Shown: positions 287-52,195 of the stretch, piece after piece | Numbering within the stretch: the stretch's first letter is position 1 | Layout: every line of letters starts with the position of its first letter | Source of the DNA: a virus | Strand: one strand, 5' to 3' | IMG/VR virus record: IMGVR_UViG_3300045003_000080 | Span: 32,001-96,000 of that record | Length of the DNA stretch: 64,000 nucleotides | Notes under the pieces: generated by a model | Database searches by the model: none | Told to the model about the DNA's origin: nothing | What the model saw: only the letters and a program-made list of their open reading frames with translations | Translations under genes and position numbers: made by a program

Positions 287-511
287 ATGCCTGTGCGCGC
301 CTCGAAAGATGGCCGGCTGCCCTGGGGTGTCGTGGACTGGTCGCACGCACCGATGGCTCGGATGGGGATCTCCGGCCTGTGTGTGCACTGTGGGGAGCCC
401 GCGTACCTTCGCCACCCGTTGACGAACCAGCCGTGTCACAAAGTCTGTGACGACGTGTATGATCGTCATACACGGCAGGTTGCCCGAGCGGCCAATGGGA
501 GCGCGCTGTAA
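287..511 (+). CDS. Small Cys/His-rich hypothetical protein
   Basis: GGAGG RBS before ATG 287; CxxC...CHxxC; 3' end runs into tRNA-Tyr. Confidence 0.4.
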   Translation: MPVRASKDGRLPWGVVDWSHAPMARMGISGLCVHCGEPAYLRHPLTNQPCHKVCDDVYDRHTRQVARAANGSAL

Positions 512-554
512 ACGCGTCGCGAAAGCTACCCAGGTTCGAATCCTGGACCTGCCA
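474..554 (+). tRNA. tRNA-Tyr(GTA)
   Basis: GGCAGGT/ACCTGCC acceptor, loop CTGTAAA, long variable arm, GTTCGAATC; no encoded CCA. Confidence 0.95.
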
Positions 555-555
555 C

Positions 556-626
556 GTCCGAGTGGCCGAGAGGCAAGGCAGCAGCCTGCAAAGCTGCGTA
601 CGCGGGTTCGAATCCCGCCTTGGACT
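556..626 (+). tRNA. tRNA-Cys(GCA)
   Basis: GTCCGAG/CTTGGAC acceptor, GCAGC-CTGCAAA-GCTGC arm, U73. Confidence 0.95.
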
Positions 627-631
627 CCCCT

Positions 632-706
632 GGGCGTGTAGAGCCAACTGGTAGAGCAGCGACGCTTAAAACGTTGTGGTTGCCGGTTCGAATCCGGCCG
701 CGCCCA
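632..706 (+). tRNA. tRNA-Leu(TAA), short variable arm, weak D-stem
   Basis: GGGCGTG/CGCGCCC acceptor, CGACG-CTTAAAA-CGTTG arm, GCCGG-TTCGAAT-CCGGC T arm. Confidence 0.85.
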
Positions 707-3078: not shown

Positions 3079-3152
3079 GGGCCTATAGCTCAACCCGGCA
3101 GAGCACCTGCTTTGCAAGCAGGGGGTTCGGGGTTCAACTCCCCGTGGGTCCA
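3079..3152 (+). tRNA. tRNA-Ala(TGC)
   Basis: G3:U70 pair, CCTGC-TTTGCAA-GCAGG arm. Confidence 0.95.
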
Positions 3153-3228
3153 CGGGACGGTGCGGCCACGCTCCGGGAGCAGACGCCGCGCAAGCGGCCC
3201 CACGAGCTGCTGAAATGTGGGTGGCAAC

Positions 3229-3303
3229 GCCCTGTTAGCTCAGCCGGCCGAGAGCGGCTCCCTCGTAAGGAGCAGGTCCGGGGTTCGACTCCCCGACGGG
3301 GCT
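3229..3303 (+). tRNA. tRNA-Thr(CGT)
   Basis: GCTCC-CTCGTAA-GGAGC arm, GGTTCGACT T loop. Confidence 0.93.
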
Positions 3304-3356
3304 CGTGGTACTGTAGGATTACATCAAGCGGTGAGGGCGAAAGCCCGGCCGCCCGG

Positions 3357-3430
3357 TGCGGGGTGGCGCAGCTCGGTAGCGCGAAGGGCCCATAACCCTT
3401 GTGTCGCAGGTTCAAATCCTGCCCCCGCCA
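3357..3430 (+). tRNA. Initiator tRNA-fMet(CAT), C33
   Basis: 1:72 mismatch, three G-C pairs closing loop CCCATAA. Confidence 0.9.
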
Positions 3431-3449
3431 CTAAGGCGCCGTCCCTCTT

Positions 3450-3523
3450 GGCCCGTGGGGATTCAACGCCGACAAAGCCTGAGGTCCGAACTCAGTGCGC
3501 GCCCCGCAAGGGGAAACGGGCCT
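3450..3523 (+). ncRNA. tRNA-like element (anticodon-like CCG, GNRA hairpin replacing T arm)
   Basis: 7-bp GGCCCGT/ACGGGCC stem, CTGAG-GTCCGAA-CTCAG arm, CCCC-GCAA-GGGG. Confidence 0.45.
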
Positions 3524-3529
3524 GCCAAA

Positions 3530-3604
3530 CGGAACGTGGGGTAGCCCGGCCGCCCGCCAGCTTTGGGAGCTGGTTCTACGCAGGTTCGAATCCTGCCGTT
3601 CCGA
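3530..3604 (+). tRNA. tRNA-Pro(TGG)
   Basis: CGGAACG/CGTTCCG acceptor, CCAGC-TTTGGGA-GCTGG arm. Confidence 0.93.
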
Positions 3605-3618
3605 CAACAACTTGATAT

Positions 3619-3693
3619 GGCCCTATAGCCCAATTGGCAGTAGGCGACGGTCTGAGGGGCCGTACAGTGCAGGTTCGAGTCCTGCTAGGGCCA
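3619..3693 (+). tRNA. tRNA-Leu(GAG), short variable arm
   Basis: ACGGT-CTGAGGG-GCCGT arm; GGCCCTA/TAGGGCC acceptor. Confidence 0.9.
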
Positions 3694-3694
3694 C

Positions 3695-3767
3695 GCTGAT
3701 GTGGCCCAGTCGGTAGGGCGTCTCCTCGCCATGGAGAAGGTCACGGGTTCGATCCCCGTCATCAGCT
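3695..3767 (+). tRNA. tRNA-Gly(GCC), C33
   Basis: TCTCC-TCGCCAT-GGAGA arm, U73. Confidence 0.9.
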
Positions 3768-3771
3768 CTAT

Positions 3772-3846
3772 GGTCCCGTGGAGCAGCTTGGAGTGCTCGA
3801 CTGCCCGTCAAGCAGTAGGTCGCGAGTTCGAATCTCGTCGGGACCG
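3772..3846 (+). tRNA. tRNA-Asp(GTC), C33
   Basis: ACTGC-CCGTCAA-GCAGT arm, G73. Confidence 0.92.
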
Positions 3847-3862
3847 CTCTACACTGGTTGAT

Positions 3863-4063
3863 ATGGCGAACTTTTTTCATCACGCTGGGGATGTCCTGCA
3901 CGAGGCCCTGCATTCGCTTGGCGACGAGTTCGACAAGGTGTTGGCGGAGCTTAGGCGCGCTGAGCAACCGGCTGTGCACGATGCGGAAGCGGCTGTTGGT
4001 GAGGCTGTGAAGGCTGCTGAGACTGTTGCAGAATCGGCAACTTCGGGTGTCGTCAACAAGTAG
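3863..4063 (+). CDS. Small helical hypothetical protein
   Basis: ATG 7 nt after TACACT; MANFFHHAGDVLHEAL... Confidence 0.6.
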   Translation: MANFFHHAGDVLHEALHSLGDEFDKVLAELRRAEQPAVHDAEAAVGEAVKAAETVAESATSGVVNK

Positions 4064-10465: not shown

Positions 10466-11089
10466 ATGGCAGCCGTCCTCACAACCAAAGGGCGCGACAT
10501 TCTAACCAATCGTATTAAAGCCGGTGGCACTGAGCCGCTCAACGTCGGCTGGGGCAACAATCCAAACACATTGACGGCTGCGAACACGGACGTCGCCCTG
10601 TTCAAACCGGCAGCTGAAGCCCGCGTCGCGGGCACCTCGACGCAGCAGACGACGACCACCACCAACGACACATATCAAGTGGTTGCGACGATCACCTCGT
10701 CCTCGGGGCAGACGATCGCGGAGGTCGGCCTGTTCGACTCGACGAGCGTCCCGTTCTCCACGACCTGGGCGACAGCGCCGACGACGACATCGGGCACCAC
10801 GGGCACGTTATCGGCGTCGTACACCCCGGCGAACAACACGTATATCCAGTCTCGTACTGAGGTCATGCAGGTCACGGCCGGTACGGGGACCACGAGTGTG
10901 ACGGTGGTGCGGGCGGCGAACGGGTCGACGGCGACGACGAGTTCGAACGGTGACACCACGACGAGCGGGAACGTGCCGGGCAGCTCGACGATCACGGGCG
11001 GGAGCATGTTCCTGCACGCGGACCACGGCGCCAATACTTTGAATAATGGTGATAGTATAACTTATACGATCAAAATCAGCTTCTCGTAA
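10466..11089 (+). CDS. Virion structural protein (tail-associated type)
   Basis: VLTTKGR...GWG...DVAL...IAEVGLFD; related to 37803..38330. Confidence 0.75.
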   Translation: MAAVLTTKGRDILTNRIKAGGTEPLNVGWGNNPNTLTAANTDVALFKPAAEARVAGTSTQQTTTTTNDTYQVVATITSSSGQTIAEVGLFDSTSVPFSTTWATAPTTTSGTTGTLSASYTPANNTYIQSRTEVMQVTAGTGTTSVTVVRAANGSTATTSSNGDTTTSGNVPGSSTITGGSMFLHADHGANTLNNGDSITYTIKISFS

Positions 11090-11101
11090 CACGGGGGGCG
11101 T

Positions 11102-11800
11102 GTGGCGATCGCGTTCGACAACACCGGATCAGCCTTCAGCAACGCCGCCACGAGCCTTTCGATTGACATCACGGCAGCCGCCACCGGCGCCTGGGTGTAC
11201 GCGTATTTCCAAATCGGTGGCTCGGAACCCAACGGTGTGACCCTGGCCGGCTGGAACAAACTCATCGACCAAAACGAGCCCAATAGCGGGTCACATTTCG
11301 CCATGTTCCGGCGCGTGAAACAGTCCGGCGACACCACGTTCTCGGCGAGTTTCCAATCCTCGCAATCGGTGGTGGCCGCCTGGTCCAGTTACACGGGTTT
11401 GAATTCGGACGTCCCGGATGAGGGTTTCCAGGGAGCGTCGCAGCAGTCGACGACCTCCTCCTACACCACGCCCACCGGCACCCCTGTGGATAACACGAGG
11501 TGGGCGCTCGCTGCCGTGGGCGCCCGGTCTACCGTCAGCGCCGAAACGTGGACAGCGCCCGCGTCACTCACCCTGCGCGTCCAGGCAGTGAACACGGCGT
11601 CACGCTGGGACCCAGTCGCGATCGCGGATTCCAACGGGGCTGTGGCCGCGTCGGCGCAAAGTTACACGTTCACACTCTCGGCGTCTGAGGCGCATGGTGG
11701 CAAGGTTCTGGGTTTCCTCGTTCCGTCTACGGCGACGGACCCCGCTTATCCGCCCCCGATTTTCGAACGGCAGGCCCTTCCGCGTGCCGCAACCTGGTAG
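11102..11800 (+). CDS. Putative virion beta-sandwich protein
   Basis: Ser/Thr/Ala-rich, two internally similar halves, operon context. Confidence 0.65.
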   Translation: MAIAFDNTGSAFSNAATSLSIDITAAATGAWVYAYFQIGGSEPNGVTLAGWNKLIDQNEPNSGSHFAMFRRVKQSGDTTFSASFQSSQSVVAAWSSYTGLNSDVPDEGFQGASQQSTTSSYTTPTGTPVDNTRWALAAVGARSTVSAETWTAPASLTLRVQAVNTASRWDPVAIADSNGAVAASAQSYTFTLSASEAHGGKVLGFLVPSTATDPAYPPPIFERQALPRAATW

Positions 11801-46407: not shown

Positions 46408-47450
46408 CCGTCACCTTTGGGATCGATATCGCGTCGTACGAGGCGGGGGAGGTGCTCAGCGAGGTCCATAGCGAGGGGTTCACTTTCGCGTATGTGAAAG
46501 CGACTCAGGGCACGAGCTACGTTGACCCGTACTTCGCGGGGTGGGCGGCCGGCCCAGGCGGCCTGATCTTCATCCCGTACCACTACGTCACCACCGAGGA
46601 CCCGGGGGCGCAGGCACGGTTCTTCCGGAGCGTTGCCGGGCCGGTGCCGGCAGTGATGCTCGACGTGGAGCAGGGCGCGCCCACGACCGGCGCCGGGGTG
46701 CTCGCGGTGATCGACGCGTTCACGGTGCTCGGCTACGTCGTCGACGTGTATCTGCCTCGCTGGTACTGGGCGCAGATCGGGTCACCCGATATGACGACGT
46801 GGCCGGTGCGTAACCTCATCGCCAGCGACTACCCGAGCACCCAATCGGGGTACGCCTTCGACCTGTACCCGGGCGACGACTACAAGGGGTGGGCGGCGTA
46901 CGGGAACAAGACGCCGGCGATTCTACAGTTCACCGACGCCGCCAAGGTGGGCGGGCAGCTCGTCGACGCGAACGCCGCGTCAGCGTCGGCGCGGTTCCTG
47001 ACCCTACCGCCACCAGCGCCCCCGGTCGTCTCCGACGTGCCCCCCGGGTGGGCGGCAACCGTCGCGACGGTGCAGGCGCAGCTCAACCGGTGGCCGTTTT
47101 CTCCGGTGCTCGTCGTCGACGACGTGCTGGGCCCGAAAACTGACGCAGCCGTCAGGGTGTTTCAACACGCAGCCGGGATCACCGTGGACGGGATCGCCGG
47201 CCCGCAAACCGTGCGCCGGGTCACCGCCTGGTACGACCCGACCCGGCCACCCCTACAGCAGGGCGCGACCGGGTCGGCTGTGTCGTGGTTGCAGGCGGAG
47301 CTGAACCGGACGATCAGCGCCGGGCTCGTCGTTGACGGCGTGTTCGGACCCGTGACGCTTGCAGAAGTCGACCGTTTCCAGGCGGTGCGGGGCCTGGTCG
47401 CCGACGGGCTCGTTGGCCGCATCACAAACGCTGCCGTGCAGATCCCTTAG
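46404..47450 (+). CDS. Endolysin: GH25 muramidase plus two PG-binding domains
   Basis: GIDIASY, YVKATQG, LDVE, ILQFT; DG..GP.T repeats. Confidence 0.93.
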   Translation: MTVTFGIDIASYEAGEVLSEVHSEGFTFAYVKATQGTSYVDPYFAGWAAGPGGLIFIPYHYVTTEDPGAQARFFRSVAGPVPAVMLDVEQGAPTTGAGVLAVIDAFTVLGYVVDVYLPRWYWAQIGSPDMTTWPVRNLIASDYPSTQSGYAFDLYPGDDYKGWAAYGNKTPAILQFTDAAKVGGQLVDANAASASARFLTLPPPAPPVVSDVPPGWAATVATVQAQLNRWPFSPVLVVDDVLGPKTDAAVRVFQHAAGITVDGIAGPQTVRRVTAWYDPTRPPLQQGATGSAVSWLQAELNRTISAGLVVDGVFGPVTLAEVDRFQAVRGLVADGLVGRITNAAVQIP

Positions 47451-47471
47451 CCGACACGTGGGAGGAAACGT

Positions 47472-47921
47472 GTGCGTGGTCGTCGCCTGCAAGGGCTTGG
47501 ACACATCTTTCGGCAACAACCGTACGAGGTCGCGTTCGCGCTCGCGTGTTTGAGCGCGCTGTGGGCGTTGCGCGCAGGCAGTGGCTCGGGTGCGGTGGCC
47601 CGGGTCCTGCCGCATTGGGGTTTGGTCGCGACCGACCTGGTGCTCGCTGCTGGTGGCGCGTTGACCCTGTTCGGGCTGGTGGTGGCCGGGTCGACGCTTG
47701 ATGATGTGCGCCGGGTTCTGGGGCGCCGGGTGGAGCAGGGCGGCCAGTTCCTGATCGCGGGTGTGTTCGCGGCGACGGCGATCGTGGTGTATTCGCTCGG
47801 GTCGGTCGGCACGGTCCCGGGTGCGGTGTATACGGCGCTCGCTGCTGCGTCGGCGACCCGGGCTGCGATGATCGGGCACACGTTCGCGCAGGCCGGCCGG
47901 GATCGGACGGACCTGGGATGA
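47472..47921 (+). CDS. 4-TM membrane protein (holin candidate)
   Basis: GGGAGG RBS; hydrophobic helices. Confidence 0.7.
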   Translation: MRGRRLQGLGHIFRQQPYEVAFALACLSALWALRAGSGSGAVARVLPHWGLVATDLVLAAGGALTLFGLVVAGSTLDDVRRVLGRRVEQGGQFLIAGVFAATAIVVYSLGSVGTVPGAVYTALAAASATRAAMIGHTFAQAGRDRTDLG

Positions 47922-48352
47922 ACGCCACAGAGTTGAGCGCCTATGCGGCGCTGATCCTTGCGGTTGTGAGCGCCACGATGAGTGTGTATAGGGGTTGGCG
48001 TAAACGGATTCAGGACGCTGCTCAGCAGCCTTTTTTGGTGGGTAACGCGGCGATCGAGGAAGCGCAGACGGCTTTACGCCTTAAGAATGACAGGTTGGCG
48101 GAACTCACCGAGTCGGAGGCGCGGCTGCGTGTCGCCCTGGCGGAGGCGAAAGGGACGGCTGAGGCGCAGCAGCAGCAGATCGTCGAACTCCAGTCGCGGC
48201 TGTACCAGGTGGATGCGACGAACCGGGAGTTGCAGGTGCGGGCGGAGGCGGCTGAGCGTCGGGAGCAGGAGCAGGTGTCGCGTATCGCGACGTTGGAGCG
48301 TGATATCGCGGATTTGCGGGTGAAGCTCGCGCTGCAGAACCCGGGCTACTGA
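47918..48352 (+). CDS. TM-anchored coiled-coil lysis accessory protein
   Basis: N-terminal TM then long heptad pattern. Confidence 0.7.
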   Translation: MNATELSAYAALILAVVSATMSVYRGWRKRIQDAAQQPFLVGNAAIEEAQTALRLKNDRLAELTESEARLRVALAEAKGTAEAQQQQIVELQSRLYQVDATNRELQVRAEAAERREQEQVSRIATLERDIADLRVKLALQNPGY

Positions 48353-48377
48353 GCACGCTGTAAGTGGGCTGGTTACC

Positions 48378-48401
48378 GTGCCGGGGCCGTAGCCCCGGCA
48401 C
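48378..48401. terminator. Hairpin between late operon and array B
   Basis: GTGCCGGGGC-CGTA-GCCCCGGCAC. Confidence 0.7.
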
Positions 48402-48405
48402 CCCT

Positions 48406-48490
48406 GCCAAGCCGTGCCCGGCCATGCCCCGCCAAGCCGCGCCGCGCTCTGCCGAGCCCAGTCCTGCCACGCTGGGGCGGGCCCCGCCAC
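48406..48490 (-). repeat. 5-nt-period array B, 17 units (GGY-NN on minus strand); candidate guide RNA
   Basis: Plus strand gccaa gccgt gcccg gccat gcccc gccaa gccgc gccgc gctct gccga gccca gtcct gccac gctgg ggcgg gcccc gccac. Confidence 0.9.
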
Positions 48491-48511
48491 GTCGCGATCT
48501 AGTGCACTCAC

Positions 48512-48540
48512 ATTGTACTAACGTGCGTGGCCATGTTCAG
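48512..48540 (-). promoter_or_regulatory. Promoter candidate for array B
   Basis: Minus-strand TACAAT (48517-48512); CTGAAC 17 nt upstream. Confidence 0.55.
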
Positions 48541-49085
48541 ACCCTCTGATCAAAGCGTGTTTCAAGGCGTTCGAGCCGGGCCAGGATCTCGGTGCGTTCT
48601 TCGGCTGTGCGCTCGTTTTCGCCTCGGATCGCGGTGACTGCCGTTTCGAGGTTTCGCTGGCGGACGTCCAGGCTGCGAATGGCGTCAGCCTGACGCTGGA
48701 ATGCGGCAGCCACTACTTCCAGTAGGTTACGCACTCCCGGGTCGGCCCCCGTTAGGTCGACCCGGGTAGCGACTTCGTGTCCTTCGCGAACTGCAAGGGC
48801 GGCGCGGCCTTGTTGCTTGCGGGCGAGCCGTAGGTGACCTACCGCGTCGACGACGCGGTATCCCTTGTCACGTACAACCTCTATCGCGTGGTGGTCCTGT
48901 TGTAACAACTCCCGTTTGGCCCGGCGCATCGGCCCTTGGATCGTGGGCCGGTCCCGAATTGGGTCCACGCCCAGAGCATCCCCGAGCGCCTCGTAACTCA
49001 GCACCTCGTTGACAGGAGTCTCTCGCAGAAGGTCATAGATGATGCGCCAACGCGCCAGCTCCCCGGTGGCTTGGAACGGGGACAT
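48537..49085 (-). CDS. Winged-HTH plus coiled-coil protein, partner of RAMP-like gene
   Basis: TGATG coupling; LSYEALGDALG...VVRDKGYRVV. Confidence 0.8.
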   Translation of the reverse strand: MSPFQATGELARWRIIYDLLRETPVNEVLSYEALGDALGVDPIRDRPTIQGPMRRAKRELLQQDHHAIEVVRDKGYRVVDAVGHLRLARKQQGRAALAVREGHEVATRVDLTGADPGVRNLLEVVAAAFQRQADAIRSLDVRQRNLETAVTAIRGENERTAEERTEILARLERLETRFDQRV

Positions 49086-49675
49086 CACCGGTACTCGATT
49101 TCCGCCACGTAGGTGCCATTCTGTGGGCGCCAGTCGCCCAGTCCCACGTAAGCGCCAGCAGTGTCGGCGATGCGCTCGATTTCGTGCTTGTCAAGGACGG
49201 ACGGATCGAACTGGCCCTCGACGTCGGTCGCCCACTGCGAGAAGCGGGCGCGGCATCGAACGGTCCGTGCGCTGTTGACTTTCACCACCTTGACGAACCG
49301 GAAGTTCTCGTTTTCCCAGAGCTTTTCAGGGTCGCGCGACCCAGGGTACGAAATCGGGTTGACGACGGTGTTGATCAGAAGGCCCGCCTTGACCTTCTCG
49401 CCTAGCTTGTGTTTCTTCGCGCCGTCGTAGAGCGAGCGCCATATGTTTTCCCCCGGCAGGTATGGGCCAGCGTCCGGGTCAGTGTAGAGCGAGCCTAAGA
49501 ACTCAAGGTAGGCGATCTCCTCGTAGTTTTCCTCAGTCTTCGACCGCTTTGACGTGCGGGCTTTAAGCGCCTTCGCGGCCGGGTCGAGGGGGTTGGCGAG
49601 TCGGCCATTGTGCATCAGGAGCTGGCGCGTGCCTTCAATGTGGAGCGTGAATTTCTGCGTTTGGAATGTGTGCAT
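49085..49675 (-). CDS. Stand-alone Cas7/RAMP-like protein (196 aa)
   Basis: FTLHIEGTRQLLMHN, PYLPGENIWRSL (cf. Csm3/Cas7 PYIPGSSLKG), C-terminal Gly loop GLGDWRPQNGTY. Confidence 0.75.
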   Translation of the reverse strand: MHTFQTQKFTLHIEGTRQLLMHNGRLANPLDPAAKALKARTSKRSKTEENYEEIAYLEFLGSLYTDPDAGPYLPGENIWRSLYDGAKKHKLGEKVKAGLLINTVVNPISYPGSRDPEKLWENENFRFVKVVKVNSARTVRCRARFSQWATDVEGQFDPSVLDKHEIERIADTAGAYVGLGDWRPQNGTYVAEIEYR

Positions 49676-49703
49676 GGGTGAGCCATTCGTCGGGATTAGT
49701 GTT

Positions 49704-49808
49704 GCCCCGCCTTGCCAAGCCACGCTAAGCCGGACCTTGTTCTGCCAAGCCGAGCCTAGCCGTGCCTAACCTAGCCGGGCCGGGCGTTGCCTGGCCAGGC
49801 CGCGCCAG
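49704..49808 (-). repeat. 5-nt-period array A, 21 units (GGY-NN on minus strand); candidate guide RNA
   Basis: Plus strand gcccc gcctt gccaa gccac gctaa gccgg acctt gttct gccaa gccga gccta gccgt gccta accta gccgg gccgg gcgtt gcctg gccag gccgc gccag. Confidence 0.92.
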
Positions 49809-49839
49809 GTGCTGCCCACCAGAGCTGTGGGCTAGAAAG

Positions 49840-49868
49840 ACGATAGCGTGGACCGTTTGTTCATGCAA
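49840..49868 (-). promoter_or_regulatory. Promoter for array A and RAMP operon
   Basis: Minus-strand TTGCAT-N17-TATCGT. Confidence 0.6.
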
Positions 49869-49973
49869 ACACGTAGATAAATCATCTGATAATACAGCGC
49901 GATGTTGAGTAGAACGGCAATGCATTGTTTTGCTGGGTGGTGCGAGTGATCCACATGTGTTTACAATAAGCAC

Positions 49974-50171
49974 ATGGATACTATTGTCACGCGGCGCAGT
50001 GGCACTCCCGACGAAGCCGTCGAGGTCGCCATGTTCTCCGACGGTGTCGCTTTGCTCGACACGAAACAGGGCGGCTCGGGTGCGCTGTGGTTTAACCCCG
50101 CCACGTTCGCCCAGTTCGTCCGCGACGTTAAAGAAGGCAAATACGATCCGGTTCCGTCCGTTAATGGCTAA
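49974..50171 (+). CDS. DUF397 (BldB-like) protein
   Basis: RRS...VEVA...VALLDTK...L.F....F..FV..VK.G; ATG 6 nt after TACAAT. Confidence 0.8.
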   Translation: MDTIVTRRSGTPDEAVEVAMFSDGVALLDTKQGGSGALWFNPATFAQFVRDVKEGKYDPVPSVNG

Positions 50172-50219
50172 GGCGCCGTCCCACCCCCACGGGGGTCGGG
50201 GCGGCGCCTTTTTCGTTTT
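50170..50219 (+). terminator. Intrinsic terminator
   Basis: AAGGCGCCGTCCC...GGGGCGGCGCCTT followed by T-run. Confidence 0.8.
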
Positions 50220-50223
50220 CCCG

Positions 50224-50742
50224 CTAGTTCGCACCCACGGGCACGGCAACGCGCTTGGGGGACACGGGCCGGGTTGCCATGTAATGGGCGAAAACCCACA
50301 GGCCCATAGTGCCGATACTTCCGATCACGCCAGCCACCAGCCGATTGGGCGACGGGACGGCGAGGGTGTGGATGGGGTAGAGAAACTGGGCCGTGACGGA
50401 CAGGACAACGAAGGCCGCGTAGAGGATGTCCAACGTGATGGCGGCGCGGGCCCAGCCCGGACGCACCACGAGCATGCCGCTACGACGGGGAGCCCGTACG
50501 GCCTTGTCGACGAAGTCAAGGGGATCACGGCCCCCTCGCGCAGCACGAGCCCCCGTGTAGACGACAGCGAGCGCGGCGAAGCAAGCCAGTATTGCGAGCG
50601 GAGCCGCGAATATATGCTGGATCAGGCCCAAGGTCGCCGCGACAGCCATGAAGAGGTGCGCGTAAGCACACCAACGGTGCGGGCACATGCGGGTGGGGGA
50701 GTGGCGGTGCTCGGTGATGGTCAGCTCCCTTCCGGTCGGCAC
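50224..50742 (-). CDS. Membrane protein
   Basis: About four hydrophobic segments; start uncertain. Confidence 0.6.
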   Translation of the reverse strand: MPTGRELTITEHRHSPTRMCPHRWCAYAHLFMAVAATLGLIQHIFAAPLAILACFAALAVVYTGARAARGGRDPLDFVDKAVRAPRRSGMLVVRPGWARAAITLDILYAAFVVLSVTAQFLYPIHTLAVPSPNRLVAGVIGSIGTMGLWVFAHYMATRPVSPKRVAVPVGAN

Positions 50743-50758
50743 GCCTATTCGTCGTACT

Positions 50759-51172
50759 TTACCAGCGATCCCAGAGTGCTTGGTGTCGGTGGCGGCCTTC
50801 GGGTTCGAGTAGTTCGTCGAGGTCTTCGCCGGCGCGGTGGAGTTTGGCGGCGTCGCGGGTGTATTGGCGGGCTGCTGTGCGTAGGCCGCCTTCGAATTGG
50901 TTGGACCATGAGCGCCAGCCGCGTAGTCCTCCGTGTCCCCAGGTGTAGGGCCAGCCGCCCCAGTCGGGGGTGCGGTGGGCGAGGAGCTGGGGGACGCGTT
51001 TGCAGCCGGCGTAGTAGCGGAGGTCGTAGATGACGTTCGAGATGATCCGTTCGTCTTCAGCGAGCCCGTCGCTGTTGATGTTCTCGCCGCGCCGCCACCA
51101 GTAAGCGGGGCGGATGCGGGTGGTGCGGACGTTCCAGTGGTTGTATGGGGTGTGGTTGACGCTGCGTGCCAT
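50759..51172 (-). CDS. Hypothetical basic protein
   Basis: GAAAGGG RBS; RHRHQALWD C-terminus. Confidence 0.65.
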   Translation of the reverse strand: MARSVNHTPYNHWNVRTTRIRPAYWWRRGENINSDGLAEDERIISNVIYDLRYYAGCKRVPQLLAHRTPDWGGWPYTWGHGGLRGWRSWSNQFEGGLRTAARQYTRDAAKLHRAGEDLDELLEPEGRHRHQALWDRW

Positions 51173-51259
51173 GGTTGGCCCTTTCGGGGCGGCCGGTGTT
51201 TCCGGCTCGGCCCCTAAGGCGGGTGGCACTGTTTCATGTGAATCATCCTATAGTCATAC

Positions 51260-52195
51260 TCATGCGGCGAGGTGGGCCACGCCGTACGGACCACCGATCG
51301 CCGACGACAGGCCCGACCACAACCGACGCGGCCCGCCCACACTCGCTTCGGGGTACGACGCCGACACGTCGAACAAGTCGAGATCCAACACCACCCACGA
51401 ATCCATCGGGTCGTAATCCGGGTGGAACATCGGCTGATCGCAGTCCAACCCGATCACCCGCATCGTCGCGCCAGACGGGGCAAGCCGCACGTCCTGCTCG
51501 TATGGGTAGTGCAGATGCCCGTGAACGAGCAGCGTGGGCGTCACCAGGTCGGCGATCTGCTGAATCCGAACCTGGTTGCGGTAGCACTCCACCGGCTGCT
51601 TATACGTCCACCCGGGCGGCGTCGACCCGTCCGGCTTGTCGTGCGTCAAGAGCACGTCGACTCGGGTCCGGTCGCGCAGCACCCGCTCGAACTCCTCGTC
51701 GCTCGCCTCCTCCTCCGGGAACCACAACGTCCCGGACGCGTCGACGTTGACGTAGCGCAGCCCTGAGTTGCGCAGTTCGAGCGCGAGCTTGTGCGCCTGG
51801 TGTTCCTCGTCCAGGCGCATGAACTTGTCCACCGAATAGGCGCCACCGAACGCGAGGAACCGCTTGCTGCCCCACGTCCACCGGTGACCACGAGGCGCAT
51901 ACCGAAGGTTGGGGCGACAGATCAGGAACCCCTCACTGTCGACGCAGTCGCCGTACTTCTCCAGCACCAACGACGTCTTGTCGTGGTTGCCGTCCAAGAA
52001 AAACACGGTGACCCCGGCCGCCTTCGCGGCCCCGTCGACGTCGTCGAAGAATCTGACGCCCTTCGCGGCGTGCTCCCACGCGCCAAAGTCCCCGACGACG
52101 AACACGATCGAGATGCCGCGTTGAGCAGCCATCCGGATCAGGTACCGCACATGCTTGATGTTGCCGTGCGTGTCGCCGGCGAGCAGGATCCTCAC
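51260..52195 (-). CDS. Calcineurin-like metallophosphoesterase
   Basis: GDTHGN, GDFG, DGNHD, THD, HGHLH. Confidence 0.92.
   Translation of the reverse strand: MRILLAGDTHGNIKHVRYLIRMAAQRGISIVFVVGDFGAWEHAAKGVRFFDDVDGAAKAAGVTVFFLDGNHDKTSLVLEKYGDCVDSEGFLICRPNLRYAPRGHRWTWGSKRFLAFGGAYSVDKFMRLDEEHQAHKLALELRNSGLRYVNVDASGTLWFPEEEASDEEFERVLRDRTRVDVLLTHDKPDGSTPPGWTYKQPVECYRNQVRIQQIADLVTPTLLVHGHLHYPYEQDVRLAPSGATMRVIGLDCDQPMFHPDYDPMDSWVVLDLDLFDVSASYPEASVGGPRRLWSGLSSAIGGPYGVAHLAA

What the first reader, a model, noticed from the sequence alone, without database searches (positions are those of the whole stretch)
48378..49868. Candidate non-CRISPR RNA-guided system: solo Cas7/RAMP-like gene flanked by two GGY-NN pentamer arrays
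Seen: a self-contained minus-strand cassette right after the lysis genes. Its order is promoter, array A (21 x 5 nt), 196-aa gene, coupled wHTH gene, promoter, array B (17 x 5 nt), hairpin. On the transcribed strand each unit is a near-constant GGY (18/21 and 13/17 units) plus a freely variable dinucleotide, with no indels breaking phase. The two arrays carry different NN series. Established: RAMP/Cas7 proteins have an N-terminal beta strand, a P(Y/F)IPGS-type motif and a C-terminal Gly-rich loop, and polymerise along guide RNA with a fixed nucleotide period; all three motifs are recognisable here. Inference: one protomer grips each GGY while the NN pairs spell a non-contiguous target, probably in competing phages or the host. 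I recall a similar architecture being reported recently as VIPR but cannot verify this here. No cas1/cas2 or CRISPR repeats are present.
Basis: partly seen in the sequence, partly recalled or inferred. Interest (0 to 1): 0.96.

Follow-up and report, generated by a model that had tools for sequence, protein, structure and literature searches.

The report
VIPR RNA-guided system in soil actinophage
This is a real member of the recently described phage VIPR systems: a small Cas7-like protein, a DNA-binding helper gene and two guide-RNA arrays of GGY-NN pentamers, so it is a new example of a known kind.

Summary
They flank a 196-aa gene and an overlapping 183-aa gene. No other place in the 119.8-kb phage genome comes near this periodicity.

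The 196-aa protein matches the solved SUSP1 Vipr protein (PDB 36pp, E 6.8e-31). It keeps the residues that grip the two guanines and folds like Csm3/Cas7 (Z 11.5). The 183-aa protein is a winged-helix plus long-helix protein related to the gene beside SUSP1-type vipr. Same-strand arrays occur in 146 of 166 relatives' loci. Their NN positions carry about 0 bits.

VIPR was published as preprints from April 2026, so this is a new member of a known kind, in a complete uncultivated soil actinophage. I found no target in 2.25 Mb scanned and no RNA data.

Local peculiarities: array A ends 26 nt before the vipr start codon, and array B ends in a plain UACG-capped hairpin. Many relatives instead have a covarying tRNA-like tail, which I did not find mentioned in the main texts of the three VIPR preprints or in one library search.

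The scan had noted this same stretch before, in another window.

The parts
49702..49816 (-). vrRNA repeat tract A: 23 in-phase GGYNN units (19 GGY). It ends 26 nt before the vipr start codon, and no structured tail was detected.
   Evidence: fold of 49676-49740 has z +0.25; gap compared with relatives
49085..49675 (-). vipr: 196-aa RAMP protein, the effector that binds one GGYNN unit per protomer (by homology)
   Evidence: PDB 36pp_D 'SUSP1 Vipr protein' E 6.8e-31; PHROG 4652 E 2.2e-51; AF2 pLDDT 94.8; Csm3 Z 11.5, rmsd 3.0 over 149 residues; contact residues
48537..49088 (-). vap (vap1-like): 183-aa winged-helix domain followed by long helices. Its start overlaps the vipr stop.
48512..48539 (-). 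sigma-70-like promoter match (9 of 12) just upstream of array B, overlapping the vap stop
   Evidence: consensus match only
48404..48488 (-). vrRNA repeat tract B: 17 in-phase GGYNN units (13 GGY). The last unit and the next bases fit the family's usual 3' junction.
48378..48401 (-). 3' tail of vrRNA B: 10-bp G+C-rich stem with a UACG loop and no T-run. It lies between convergent genes.
   Evidence: same tail class seen in L020, L023, L024, L091, L094
49963..49990 (-). nearest promoter-like site on the vipr strand upstream of array A (uncertain)

Best explanation
The locus is a VIPR (Viral Interference Programmable Repeat) system, most like type II, carried as an accessory cassette by a complete 119.8-kb soil actinophage.

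Inferred by homology to the tested SUSP1 and P. fulva systems: the two GGYNN tracts are transcribed as vrRNAs. Vipr protomers assemble along each RNA, one per pentamer. Each GGY is held by two neighbouring protomers, and the NN dinucleotides are presented. The filament binds double-stranded DNA whose sequence matches the NN series with one skipped base per unit, and it blocks transcription there. The winged-helix Vap strengthens the effect. The likely targets are competing mobile elements in the host, such as prophages, satellites or other phages' VIPR loci.

Shown here: the sequence anatomy, the homology, the conserved RNA-contact residues, the co-occurrence of arrays with the gene across relatives, and the absence of self-targets. 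Not shown here: transcription, RNP formation and the target.
For: (1) Periodicity far above chance, and unique in the genome.

(2) Vipr homology: PDB 36pp_D, E 6.8e-31, query 10-193 against chain 5-189.

(3) Residues that the cryo-EM paper names as contacts map as follows on the SUSP1-type protein of phage wV8: H17>H22, K33>K38, E71>E76, R138>R142, D177/W178/R179>D181/W182/R183. R142, R183 and P184 are invariant in 166 of 166 relatives' ORFs, and H22 is kept in 163 of 166.

(4) Fold: AF2 pLDDT 94.8. Foldseek's best matches are Csm3 chains (E 8.7e-6). In VIA-align all 50 rows shown are Cas7-family chains, with the top at Z 11.5.

(5) In 166 relatives' loci (some are duplicate records), 146 have at least one array on the vipr strand. 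That is 329 arrays against 9 on the other strand. Unit positions 4 and 5 carry 0.07 and 0.00 bits.

(6) The vap has homologues directly downstream of vipr in 65 of 166 loci by phmmer and 86 of 166 by jackhmmer. Its profile matches the gene after vipr in wV8 with 96.7% probability, E 4.2e-10. The wV8 Vipr matches SUSP1 Vipr over residues 1-195 at E 6e-128.

(7) No 1-nt-skip self-target: the best scores are 57% and 62% of NN positions, within the shuffled-guide null. The discovery paper reports the same for its systems.

(8) The genome is a viral record with terminal repeats, rated complete. It has no Cas1 or Cas2 match.

(9) The cassette is absent from the syntenic site of the closest relative, G001, as expected of an accessory module.
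Against: There is no expression evidence, because no RNA run was listed.

No target reaching 80% NN match was found in the 2.25 Mb I could scan, and the 1-nt skip rule did no better than 0, 2 or 3 skips there.

Array A has no detectable structured tail and no confirmed promoter. The hairpin after B folds only modestly better than shuffles (z -2.13).

Two residues of the pyrimidine pocket differ from SUSP1 (M72>N77, C173>V177).

The type II assignment rests on the vap match and on direct alignability to SUSP1. The paper's type tables are in supplements that were closed.
Confidence: 0.9

Rival explanations
1. A decaying or partly inactive VIPR cassette. The genes are intact, but one or both arrays no longer work as guides: array A because it has no tail and sits in the vipr leader, or both because of degenerate units.
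For: 3 of 21 and 4 of 17 units are not GGY. No fold signal follows array A (z +0.25). No target was found. No promoter match lies next to array A.
Against: Both ORFs are open and keep the invariant residues. The discovery paper notes that internal degeneracy is frequent in vrRNAs. An upstream array that ends within 40 nt of the start codon is common in the close clade: 16 of 30 loci that have an upstream array. So the layout is conserved rather than a local accident.
Confidence: 0.07
2. A working VIPR whose guides are aimed at the host chromosome or at the phage's own gene timing, and not at competing mobile elements.
For: The targets are unknown. I did not test this further. The satellite paper's abstract reports that solo vrRNAs can redirect VIPR to host sites.
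Against: There is no match in the phage's own genome above the shuffled null. In the studied clades, 18 of 20 and 48 of 66 vrRNA targets with identifiable hits lie in satellites or prophages.
Confidence: 0.15
3. The pentamer tracts are DNA-level elements (binding sites or a slippage-prone G-rich repeat) unrelated to the neighbouring gene.
For: None, beyond the lack of RNA data.
Against: Strand bias of 329 to 9 relative to vipr in relatives. Fixed GGY with free NN. Homology to a protein solved in complex with such RNA.
Confidence: 0.01

Closest known systems
Type II VIPR of Escherichia phage SUSP1 and other Felixounavirus phages, and of the P. fulva prophage (bioRxiv 10.64898/2026.04.26.720920, .720927, 2026.10.15.759431)
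   Same: The Vipr protein is alignable end to end (64 identical of 191 aligned positions to the wV8/SUSP1-type protein) with the same guanine-contact residues. A vap1-like winged-helix gene follows directly. One GGYNN array lies upstream and one downstream, on the gene's strand. There are no cas1/cas2 genes. The system is phage-borne.
   Different: The host lineage is probably Actinomycetota rather than Enterobacteria or Pseudomonas. The arrays have 17 and 21-23 units, against 9-16 reported. The upstream array abuts the start codon (26 nt here, about 110 nt in wV8). The tail is a plain UACG-capped hairpin and not the SUSP1 pseudoknot. There is only one downstream vrRNA. The targets are unknown.
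Unannotated homologues in cultured actinophages: Gordonia phage MakoManhole gp78/gp77, Mycobacterium phage LittleE gp34/gp33, Gordonia phage Trine gp41, M. abscessus prophiBWHA-1 gp43/gp42
   Same: 54%, 45%, 40% and 43% identity to this Vipr. The same vipr-vap pair and same-strand GGYNN arrays are present.
   Different: Their vrRNAs are followed by a covarying tRNA-like element. That element is absent from this locus. The records annotate these genes as hypothetical or DNA-binding proteins.
Csm3/Cas7 backbone subunits of type III (and type VII) CRISPR effector complexes
   Same: Same RAMP fold: Z 11.5, rmsd 3.0 A over 149 of 196 residues to 9g9f_D. Both polymerise along a guide RNA with a fixed period (for Vipr).
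   Different: No sequence-model match in Pfam, NCBIfam or PADLOC. There is no CRISPR array, Cas1/Cas2 or other Cas subunit. The guide period is 5 nt, not 6. The target is double-stranded DNA read with gaps.

Membership tests
VIPR system | Vipr protein homologous to characterised Vipr | tested here: met
   phmmer against PDB: 36pp_D 'SUSP1 Vipr protein', E 6.8e-31, 184 residues aligned
VIPR system | RAMP fold with RRM core, thumb and glycine-rich loop | tested here: met
   AF2 pLDDT 94.8. Csm3 chains top both searches. The G-loop motif G-D-W-R-P at 180-184 has R and P invariant in 166 of 166 relatives.
VIPR system | Residues that hold G1, G2 and Y3 of each repeat | tested here: met
   H22, R142, D181, W182, R183, E76 and K38 match the SUSP1 residues named. 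M72>N77 and C173>V177 differ.
VIPR system | Tandem GGYNN (YNNGG) units, at least 4, on the vipr strand in the flanking intergenic DNA | tested here: met
   23 and 17 units. Criterion taken.
VIPR system | GGY fixed and NN hypervariable across relatives | tested here: met
   Over 4140 units from 329 arrays, positions 4 and 5 carry 0.07 and 0.00 bits. The high information at positions 1-3 is partly imposed by my caller. No relative is close enough to align orthologous arrays (best 60% protein identity).
VIPR system | Structured, conserved 3' tail after the repeat tract | tested here: inconclusive
   Array B has a 10-bp hairpin, z -2.13, and the same tail class occurs in 5 relatives' loci. Array A shows no structure (z +0.25).
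VIPR system | Adjacent vap accessory gene | tested here: met
   The 183-aa gene overlaps the vipr stop. Its homologues follow vipr in 65 to 86 of 166 loci.
VIPR system | vrRNAs expressed and co-purifying with Vipr | not testable with these tools
   No RNA run holds the stretch. This needs a bench test.
VIPR system | Natural target matching the NN series under the 1-nt skip rule (at least 80% NN match) | tested here: inconclusive
   None found in the phage's own genome, in 853,283 bases of VIPR loci or in 1,279,071 bases of related phages. Large collections were not searched.
VIPR type II | vap1-type DNA-binding accessory protein | tested here: met
   hhalign of the vap profile against the wV8 gene after vipr: 96.7%, E 4.2e-10, 105 columns. 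The wV8 Vipr matches SUSP1 Vipr at E 6e-128. Winged-helix topology in the AF2 model. All Foldseek rows are weak (best E 1.4e-3) and most are winged-helix regulators.
VIPR type II | Placement in the type II clade of the Vipr phylogeny | not tested
   The type tables and tree are in supplements, which were closed. I can only say that this Vipr aligns directly with the SUSP1-type protein (64 of 191 positions identical) and with Pseudomonas phage proteins (39-40%).
CRISPR-Cas (type III Csm3/Cas7) | Match to Cas7/Csm3 sequence families, and a locus with a CRISPR array and other cas genes | tested here: not met
   No Cas family in Pfam, NCBIfam or PADLOC. No Cas1 or Cas2 in the genome. No CRISPR repeat family at gathering score. 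Only the fold is shared.

The most novel reading that the evidence does not exclude
In this actinophage clade the vrRNA architecture differs from the published type II model in two ways that may matter for mechanism.

(a) The long upstream guide is part of the vipr-vap mRNA leader. It ends 26 nt from the start codon and has no tail of its own. Vipr filament growth on its own leader could therefore both load a guide and throttle vipr translation (autoregulation).

(b) In many relatives, but not here, each vrRNA ends in a covarying acceptor/T-arm tRNA-like minihelix. That would hand vrRNA 3'-end formation or array processing to host tRNA enzymes (RNase P or RNase Z), or would cap the filament as the SUSP1 pseudoknot does. 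This locus would then be a tail-simplified derivative that relies on a UNCG-type hairpin.
Probability: 0.3. Interest if true: 0.6.

Novelty: new member of a known kind. Interest (0 to 1): 0.35.

Why it matters
The kind is already described. The value here is confirmation and range extension. A blind read of raw sequence recovered a true VIPR locus. It sits in a complete, uncultivated 120-kb soil actinophage with no near-identical DNA match in the phage collection searched.

The family is clearly common in phages and prophages of Actinomycetota. That includes cultured Mycobacterium and Gordonia phages whose records annotate these genes as hypothetical or DNA-binding proteins. These would be tractable systems for testing VIPR outside Proteobacteria.

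The clade-specific features are the leader-embedded long guide, the simple hairpin tail here and the tRNA-like tails in relatives. They point to untested questions about how vrRNAs are made and capped.

Tried and rejected
Near-identical DNA search of 47000-52000 against the phage collection: no match.

The search for related loci with the single protein: none confirmed. The alignment query then worked.

Pfam, NCBIfam and PADLOC gave no meaningful hit for Vipr. For vap they gave only a weak Trans_reg_C hit (E 0.077) and a coiled-coil-type JetC hit (E 0.0036).

The vap profile against PDB sequences gave nothing significant (best E 0.023; OmpR-type winged helices at 0.076-0.23).

An Rfam E-value search gave a sub-threshold CRISPR-DR29 match (26.3 bits against a gathering score of 39, E 0.18) over the array B hairpin. 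I treat it as chance.

RNA evidence: no RNA holder was listed. Only two soil-metagenome DNA runs hold the stretch, and they may be its source.

Target search: no full-length guide reached 80% NN match in the phage's own genome (best 57% for A, 62% for B), in 166 VIPR loci (57%, 68%), or in three related phage genomes plus 80 terminase-linked loci (57%, 65%). Eight-unit sub-guides reached 81-88% under every skip rule alike, which is chance.

A 9-unit window with at least 7 in-phase GGY in the vipr-less relative G001 (83140-83184) looked like a G-rich chance run, not a solo vrRNA.

The tRNA-like tail model R1 found nothing in the window's VIPR locus. Its best window hit, E 0.08 at 3639-3704, lies among true tRNA genes.

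Extending the tRNA-like acceptor stem by two pairs was not supported: 44 of 52 cells unpaired at columns 12-55.

Papers. In 720920 I saw the outline, the whole Results, Methods sections 18, 20, 26 and 27, and word finds. In 720927 I saw the outline, sections 5 and 6, and word finds. In 759431 I saw the outline, section 17 and word finds. In 2026.10.21.760802 I saw passages only. All supplements were closed. They may hold the type tables, actinophage loci and tail variants.
Full report
What is there. On the minus strand of the window the order is as follows. A promoter-like site lies at 49990..49963, the only one the scan finds on this strand upstream of array A. Array A follows at 49816..49702, then a 26-nt gap, then a 196-aa ORF at 49675..49085. 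A 183-aa ORF at 49088..48537 starts with a GTG that overlaps the first ORF's stop. A promoter-like site (9 of 12 matches) lies at 48539..48512. Array B follows at 48488..48404, then a 10-bp hairpin with a UACG loop at 48401..48378.

18 of 21 units in A and 13 of 17 in B begin with GGY, with no indel and with different NN series.

The periodicity is not chance. With a 17-unit in-phase count over both strands of the window, the plus strand never exceeds 6. On the minus strand the only clusters of positions with 10 or more are these two places, which reach 14. With a 9-unit count on the whole 119,829-bp genome, the only clusters of 6 or more are again these two.

What the protein is. Pfam, NCBIfam and PADLOC give nothing for the 196-aa protein. 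PHROGs gives family 4652, of unknown function (E 2.2e-51). Against the sequences of solved structures it matches 36pp chain D, 'SUSP1 Vipr protein', at E 6.8e-31 over residues 10-193.

The cryo-EM preprint (sections 5 and 6) names the SUSP1 residues that hold the repeat. H17 and D177 hold G1. R138 and W178 hold G2. E71, M72, R179, C173 and T175 form the pyrimidine pocket. K33 contacts the target backbone. I aligned this protein to the phage wV8 protein, which matches SUSP1 Vipr at E 6e-128. They map to H22, D181, R142, W182, E76, N77, R183, V177, L179 and K38. R142, R183 and P184 are invariant in 166 of 166 relatives' ORFs, D181 is kept in 164 and H22 in 163.

An AlphaFold model built on 32 sequences has mean pLDDT 94.8. 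Foldseek's best PDB matches are Csm3 chains (E 8.7e-6, TM 0.52). In VIA-align all 50 rows shown are Cas7-family chains, with the top at Z 11.5, rmsd 3.0 A over 149 residues. The structure library ends on 8 April 2026 and does not list the Vipr entries.

What the second gene is. Its AlphaFold model (pLDDT 92.1) has the helix-strand-helix-helix-strand-strand order of a winged helix (residues 10-79), followed by two long helices (82-108 and 117-182). No Foldseek row reaches E 0.001. Most weak rows are winged-helix regulators, for example 5dcm_A with rmsd 2.6 A over 75 columns. Homologues lie directly downstream of vipr in 65 of 166 relatives' loci by phmmer and 86 of 166 by jackhmmer. A profile of 23 of them matches the gene that follows vipr in wV8 with 96.7% probability, E 4.2e-10. 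I therefore call it vap1-like. That the wV8 gene is the paper's vap1 is my inference from its position.

Relatives. The protein has 105 database relatives at E 0.001 or better, the best non-self at 60% identity. It matches 128 phage records. These include Gordonia phage MakoManhole (54%), Mycobacterium phage LittleE (45%), a M. abscessus prophage (43%), Gordonia phage Trine (40%), Pseudomonas phages (39-40%) and a large block of Felixounavirus phages (about 34%). In IMG/VR, 454 of 498 candidate stretches encode a relative, and in species-representative genomes 135 of 173 do. The best cellular hits are in Streptantibioticus, Planomonospora, Streptomyces, Streptosporangium, Piscicoccus and Mycobacterium.

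I ran one caller on the 166 fetched loci. Several of these are the same record held in two collections. 146 loci have at least one GGYNN array on the vipr strand: 329 arrays against 9 on the opposite strand, and none overlaps the vipr gene. Arrays have a median of 12 units. Over 4140 units, positions 4 and 5 carry 0.07 and 0.00 bits. The high information at positions 1-3 is partly imposed by the caller. The last unit's NN is AG, AT or AA in 187 of 329 arrays, against 25% at internal units. The next three bases are GGG or GGA in 188 of 329. Array B fits both of these; array A fits only the first.

What is known. VIPR was described in bioRxiv 10.64898/2026.04.26.720920. It reports a phage-borne ancestral RAMP (Vipr), a vap gene, and roughly 100-nt vrRNAs of 9-16 YNNGG units with a structured tail. 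DNA is recognised through the NN dinucleotides with one skipped base per unit. Silencing can be reprogrammed, natural targets lie in satellites and prophages, and seven types are defined. The companion structures show one protomer per repeat and a gapped R-loop triplex. A third preprint shows that SUSP1 needs VIPR to grow on satellite-bearing hosts. A fourth recovers VIPR arrays with a language model. This locus meets every sequence-level criterion, so it is a member and not a new kind. None of 'Actinomycet', 'Streptomyces' or 'Mycobacteri' occurs in the main text of the first preprint. 'Actinobacteri', 'Mycobacterium', 'Gordonia' and 'Streptomyces' are likewise absent from the third. The supplements were closed.

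Context. The window belongs to a viral record of 119,829 bp with direct terminal repeats, rated complete and held by soil-metagenome runs. Its terminase finds no close cultured phage, but it does find an IMG/VR relative at 86% identity (G001, 115.5 kb). G001 has no vipr. In G001 the endolysin-like gene and the DUF397 gene lie about 58 bp apart, whereas this phage has two small ORFs and the VIPR cassette between them. A more distant relative, G002 (terminase 66%), carries a 48%-identical vipr-vap pair elsewhere in its genome. The cassette therefore behaves as an accessory module. The genome has no Cas1 or Cas2 match, and the window has no CRISPR repeat family at threshold.

Targets. Under the published rule there is no self-target. 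The best scores are 26 of 46 for A and 21 of 34 for B, within the range of 100 shuffled guides. Nothing reached 80% in 853,283 bases of VIPR loci, or in 1,279,071 bases of G001-G003 plus 80 terminase-linked loci. In those scans the 1-nt skip did no better than the other skip rules. I did not search large collections, because that needs a typed, altered sequence.

Local peculiarities. Array A ends 26 nt before the start codon. In the close clade (phmmer score of 180 bits or more), 16 of the 30 loci with an upstream array have a gap of 40 nt or less. Among more distant loci only 5 of 37 do, and their gaps cluster near 110-130 nt, as in wV8. So the upstream guide is probably part of the vipr leader in this clade. 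The consequences, processing or autoregulation, are inference.

Array B's tail is a simple hairpin. The same class, a hairpin closed by a UNCG-type loop right after the last unit, is seen in L020, L023, L024, L091 and L094.

Side finding in relatives. 61 of 328 arrays are followed, mostly 25-40 nt downstream, by a T-loop-like motif. Only 125 of 6640 random 70-nt windows have one. I aligned 52 of the 53 distinct stretches. The alignment shows a 5-bp acceptor-like stem, a linker with a near-invariant GG, a 6-bp stem closing a 7-nt T-loop, and an unpaired purine. 96.7% of cells pair, against 61.5% in shuffles (0 of 500 shuffles reach it). 176 cells have changes on both sides, against 47.5 in shuffles. 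The covariation score is 0.869, against at most 0.182 with slid partners.

A covariance model built from this alignment finds 89 matches in 38 of 98 loci, all on the vipr strand. It finds 3 matches in 67 further, mostly proteobacterial, loci. It finds none at this window's VIPR locus. ARAGORN called no tRNA at these elements in the six loci scanned, and Rfam matched no family to them in the nine loci searched.

'tRNA' does not occur in the main texts of the three VIPR preprints. No paper in the library holds both 'vrRNA' and 'tRNA-like'. The elements were selected by the loop motif, so the loop itself is not independent evidence; the stems are.

Verdict. The kind is already published, so this is a new member of a known kind. 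Interest is modest for the locus itself and somewhat higher for the clade-level vrRNA architecture.

Noticed in passing
L002, L003, L004, L005, L008, L009, L012-L015, L017, L019, L022, L028 and others (for example L014:2224-2285, L003:2373-2434): vrRNA arrays of many actinobacterial-type VIPR loci end in a covarying tRNA-like minihelix: a 5-bp acceptor-like stem, a GG linker, and a 6-bp stem with a 7-nt T-loop. These loci include Mycobacterium phage LittleE and Gordonia phages MakoManhole and Trine. The model finds 89 matches in 38 of 98 loci, all on the vipr strand. I did not find this in the main texts of the VIPR preprints.
   Followed up: yes
window 47472-49900, compared with G001 (L249, about 10700-11250): The closest relative phage (terminase 86% identical) lacks vipr. 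Its endolysin-like and DUF397 genes lie about 58 bp apart, so the VIPR cassette and the two small ORFs before it are an insertion/deletion difference.
   Followed up: partly
L005:3081-3373 (Gordonia phage Trine): The annotated CDS gp40 (locus 3097-3900) overlaps a GGYNN array (3140-3209) and three tRNA-like tail matches (3081-3143, 3202-3264, 3311-3373). At least its 5' part is probably non-coding vrRNA.
   Followed up: no
L007:2250-2307 and 3643-3700 (Escherichia phage wV8): The record's 'DR_4' direct-repeat features lie at or next to the GGYNN arrays (2327-2391 and 3587-3656). The conserved vrRNA tail region was apparently annotated as a repeat in that record.
   Followed up: no
relatives' loci, all 329 arrays: The 3' junction of the arrays is semi-conserved. 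The last unit's NN is AG, AT or AA in 187 of 329 arrays (25% at internal units), and the next three bases are GGG or GGA in 188 of 329.
   Followed up: partly
window 49974-50171 (+): A 65-aa DUF397 protein (Pfam E 2.7e-6) is transcribed divergently from the VIPR cassette. A homologue (64% identity) is kept in G001.
   Followed up: no
window 474-706 and 3079-3846 (+): Ten tRNA genes in two clusters, all at or above the Rfam gathering score.
   Followed up: no
G001 83140-83184 (+), in L253: A short G-rich run in the vipr-less relative, with at least 7 of 9 in-phase GGY. It looks like chance and not like a solo vrRNA.
   Followed up: partly
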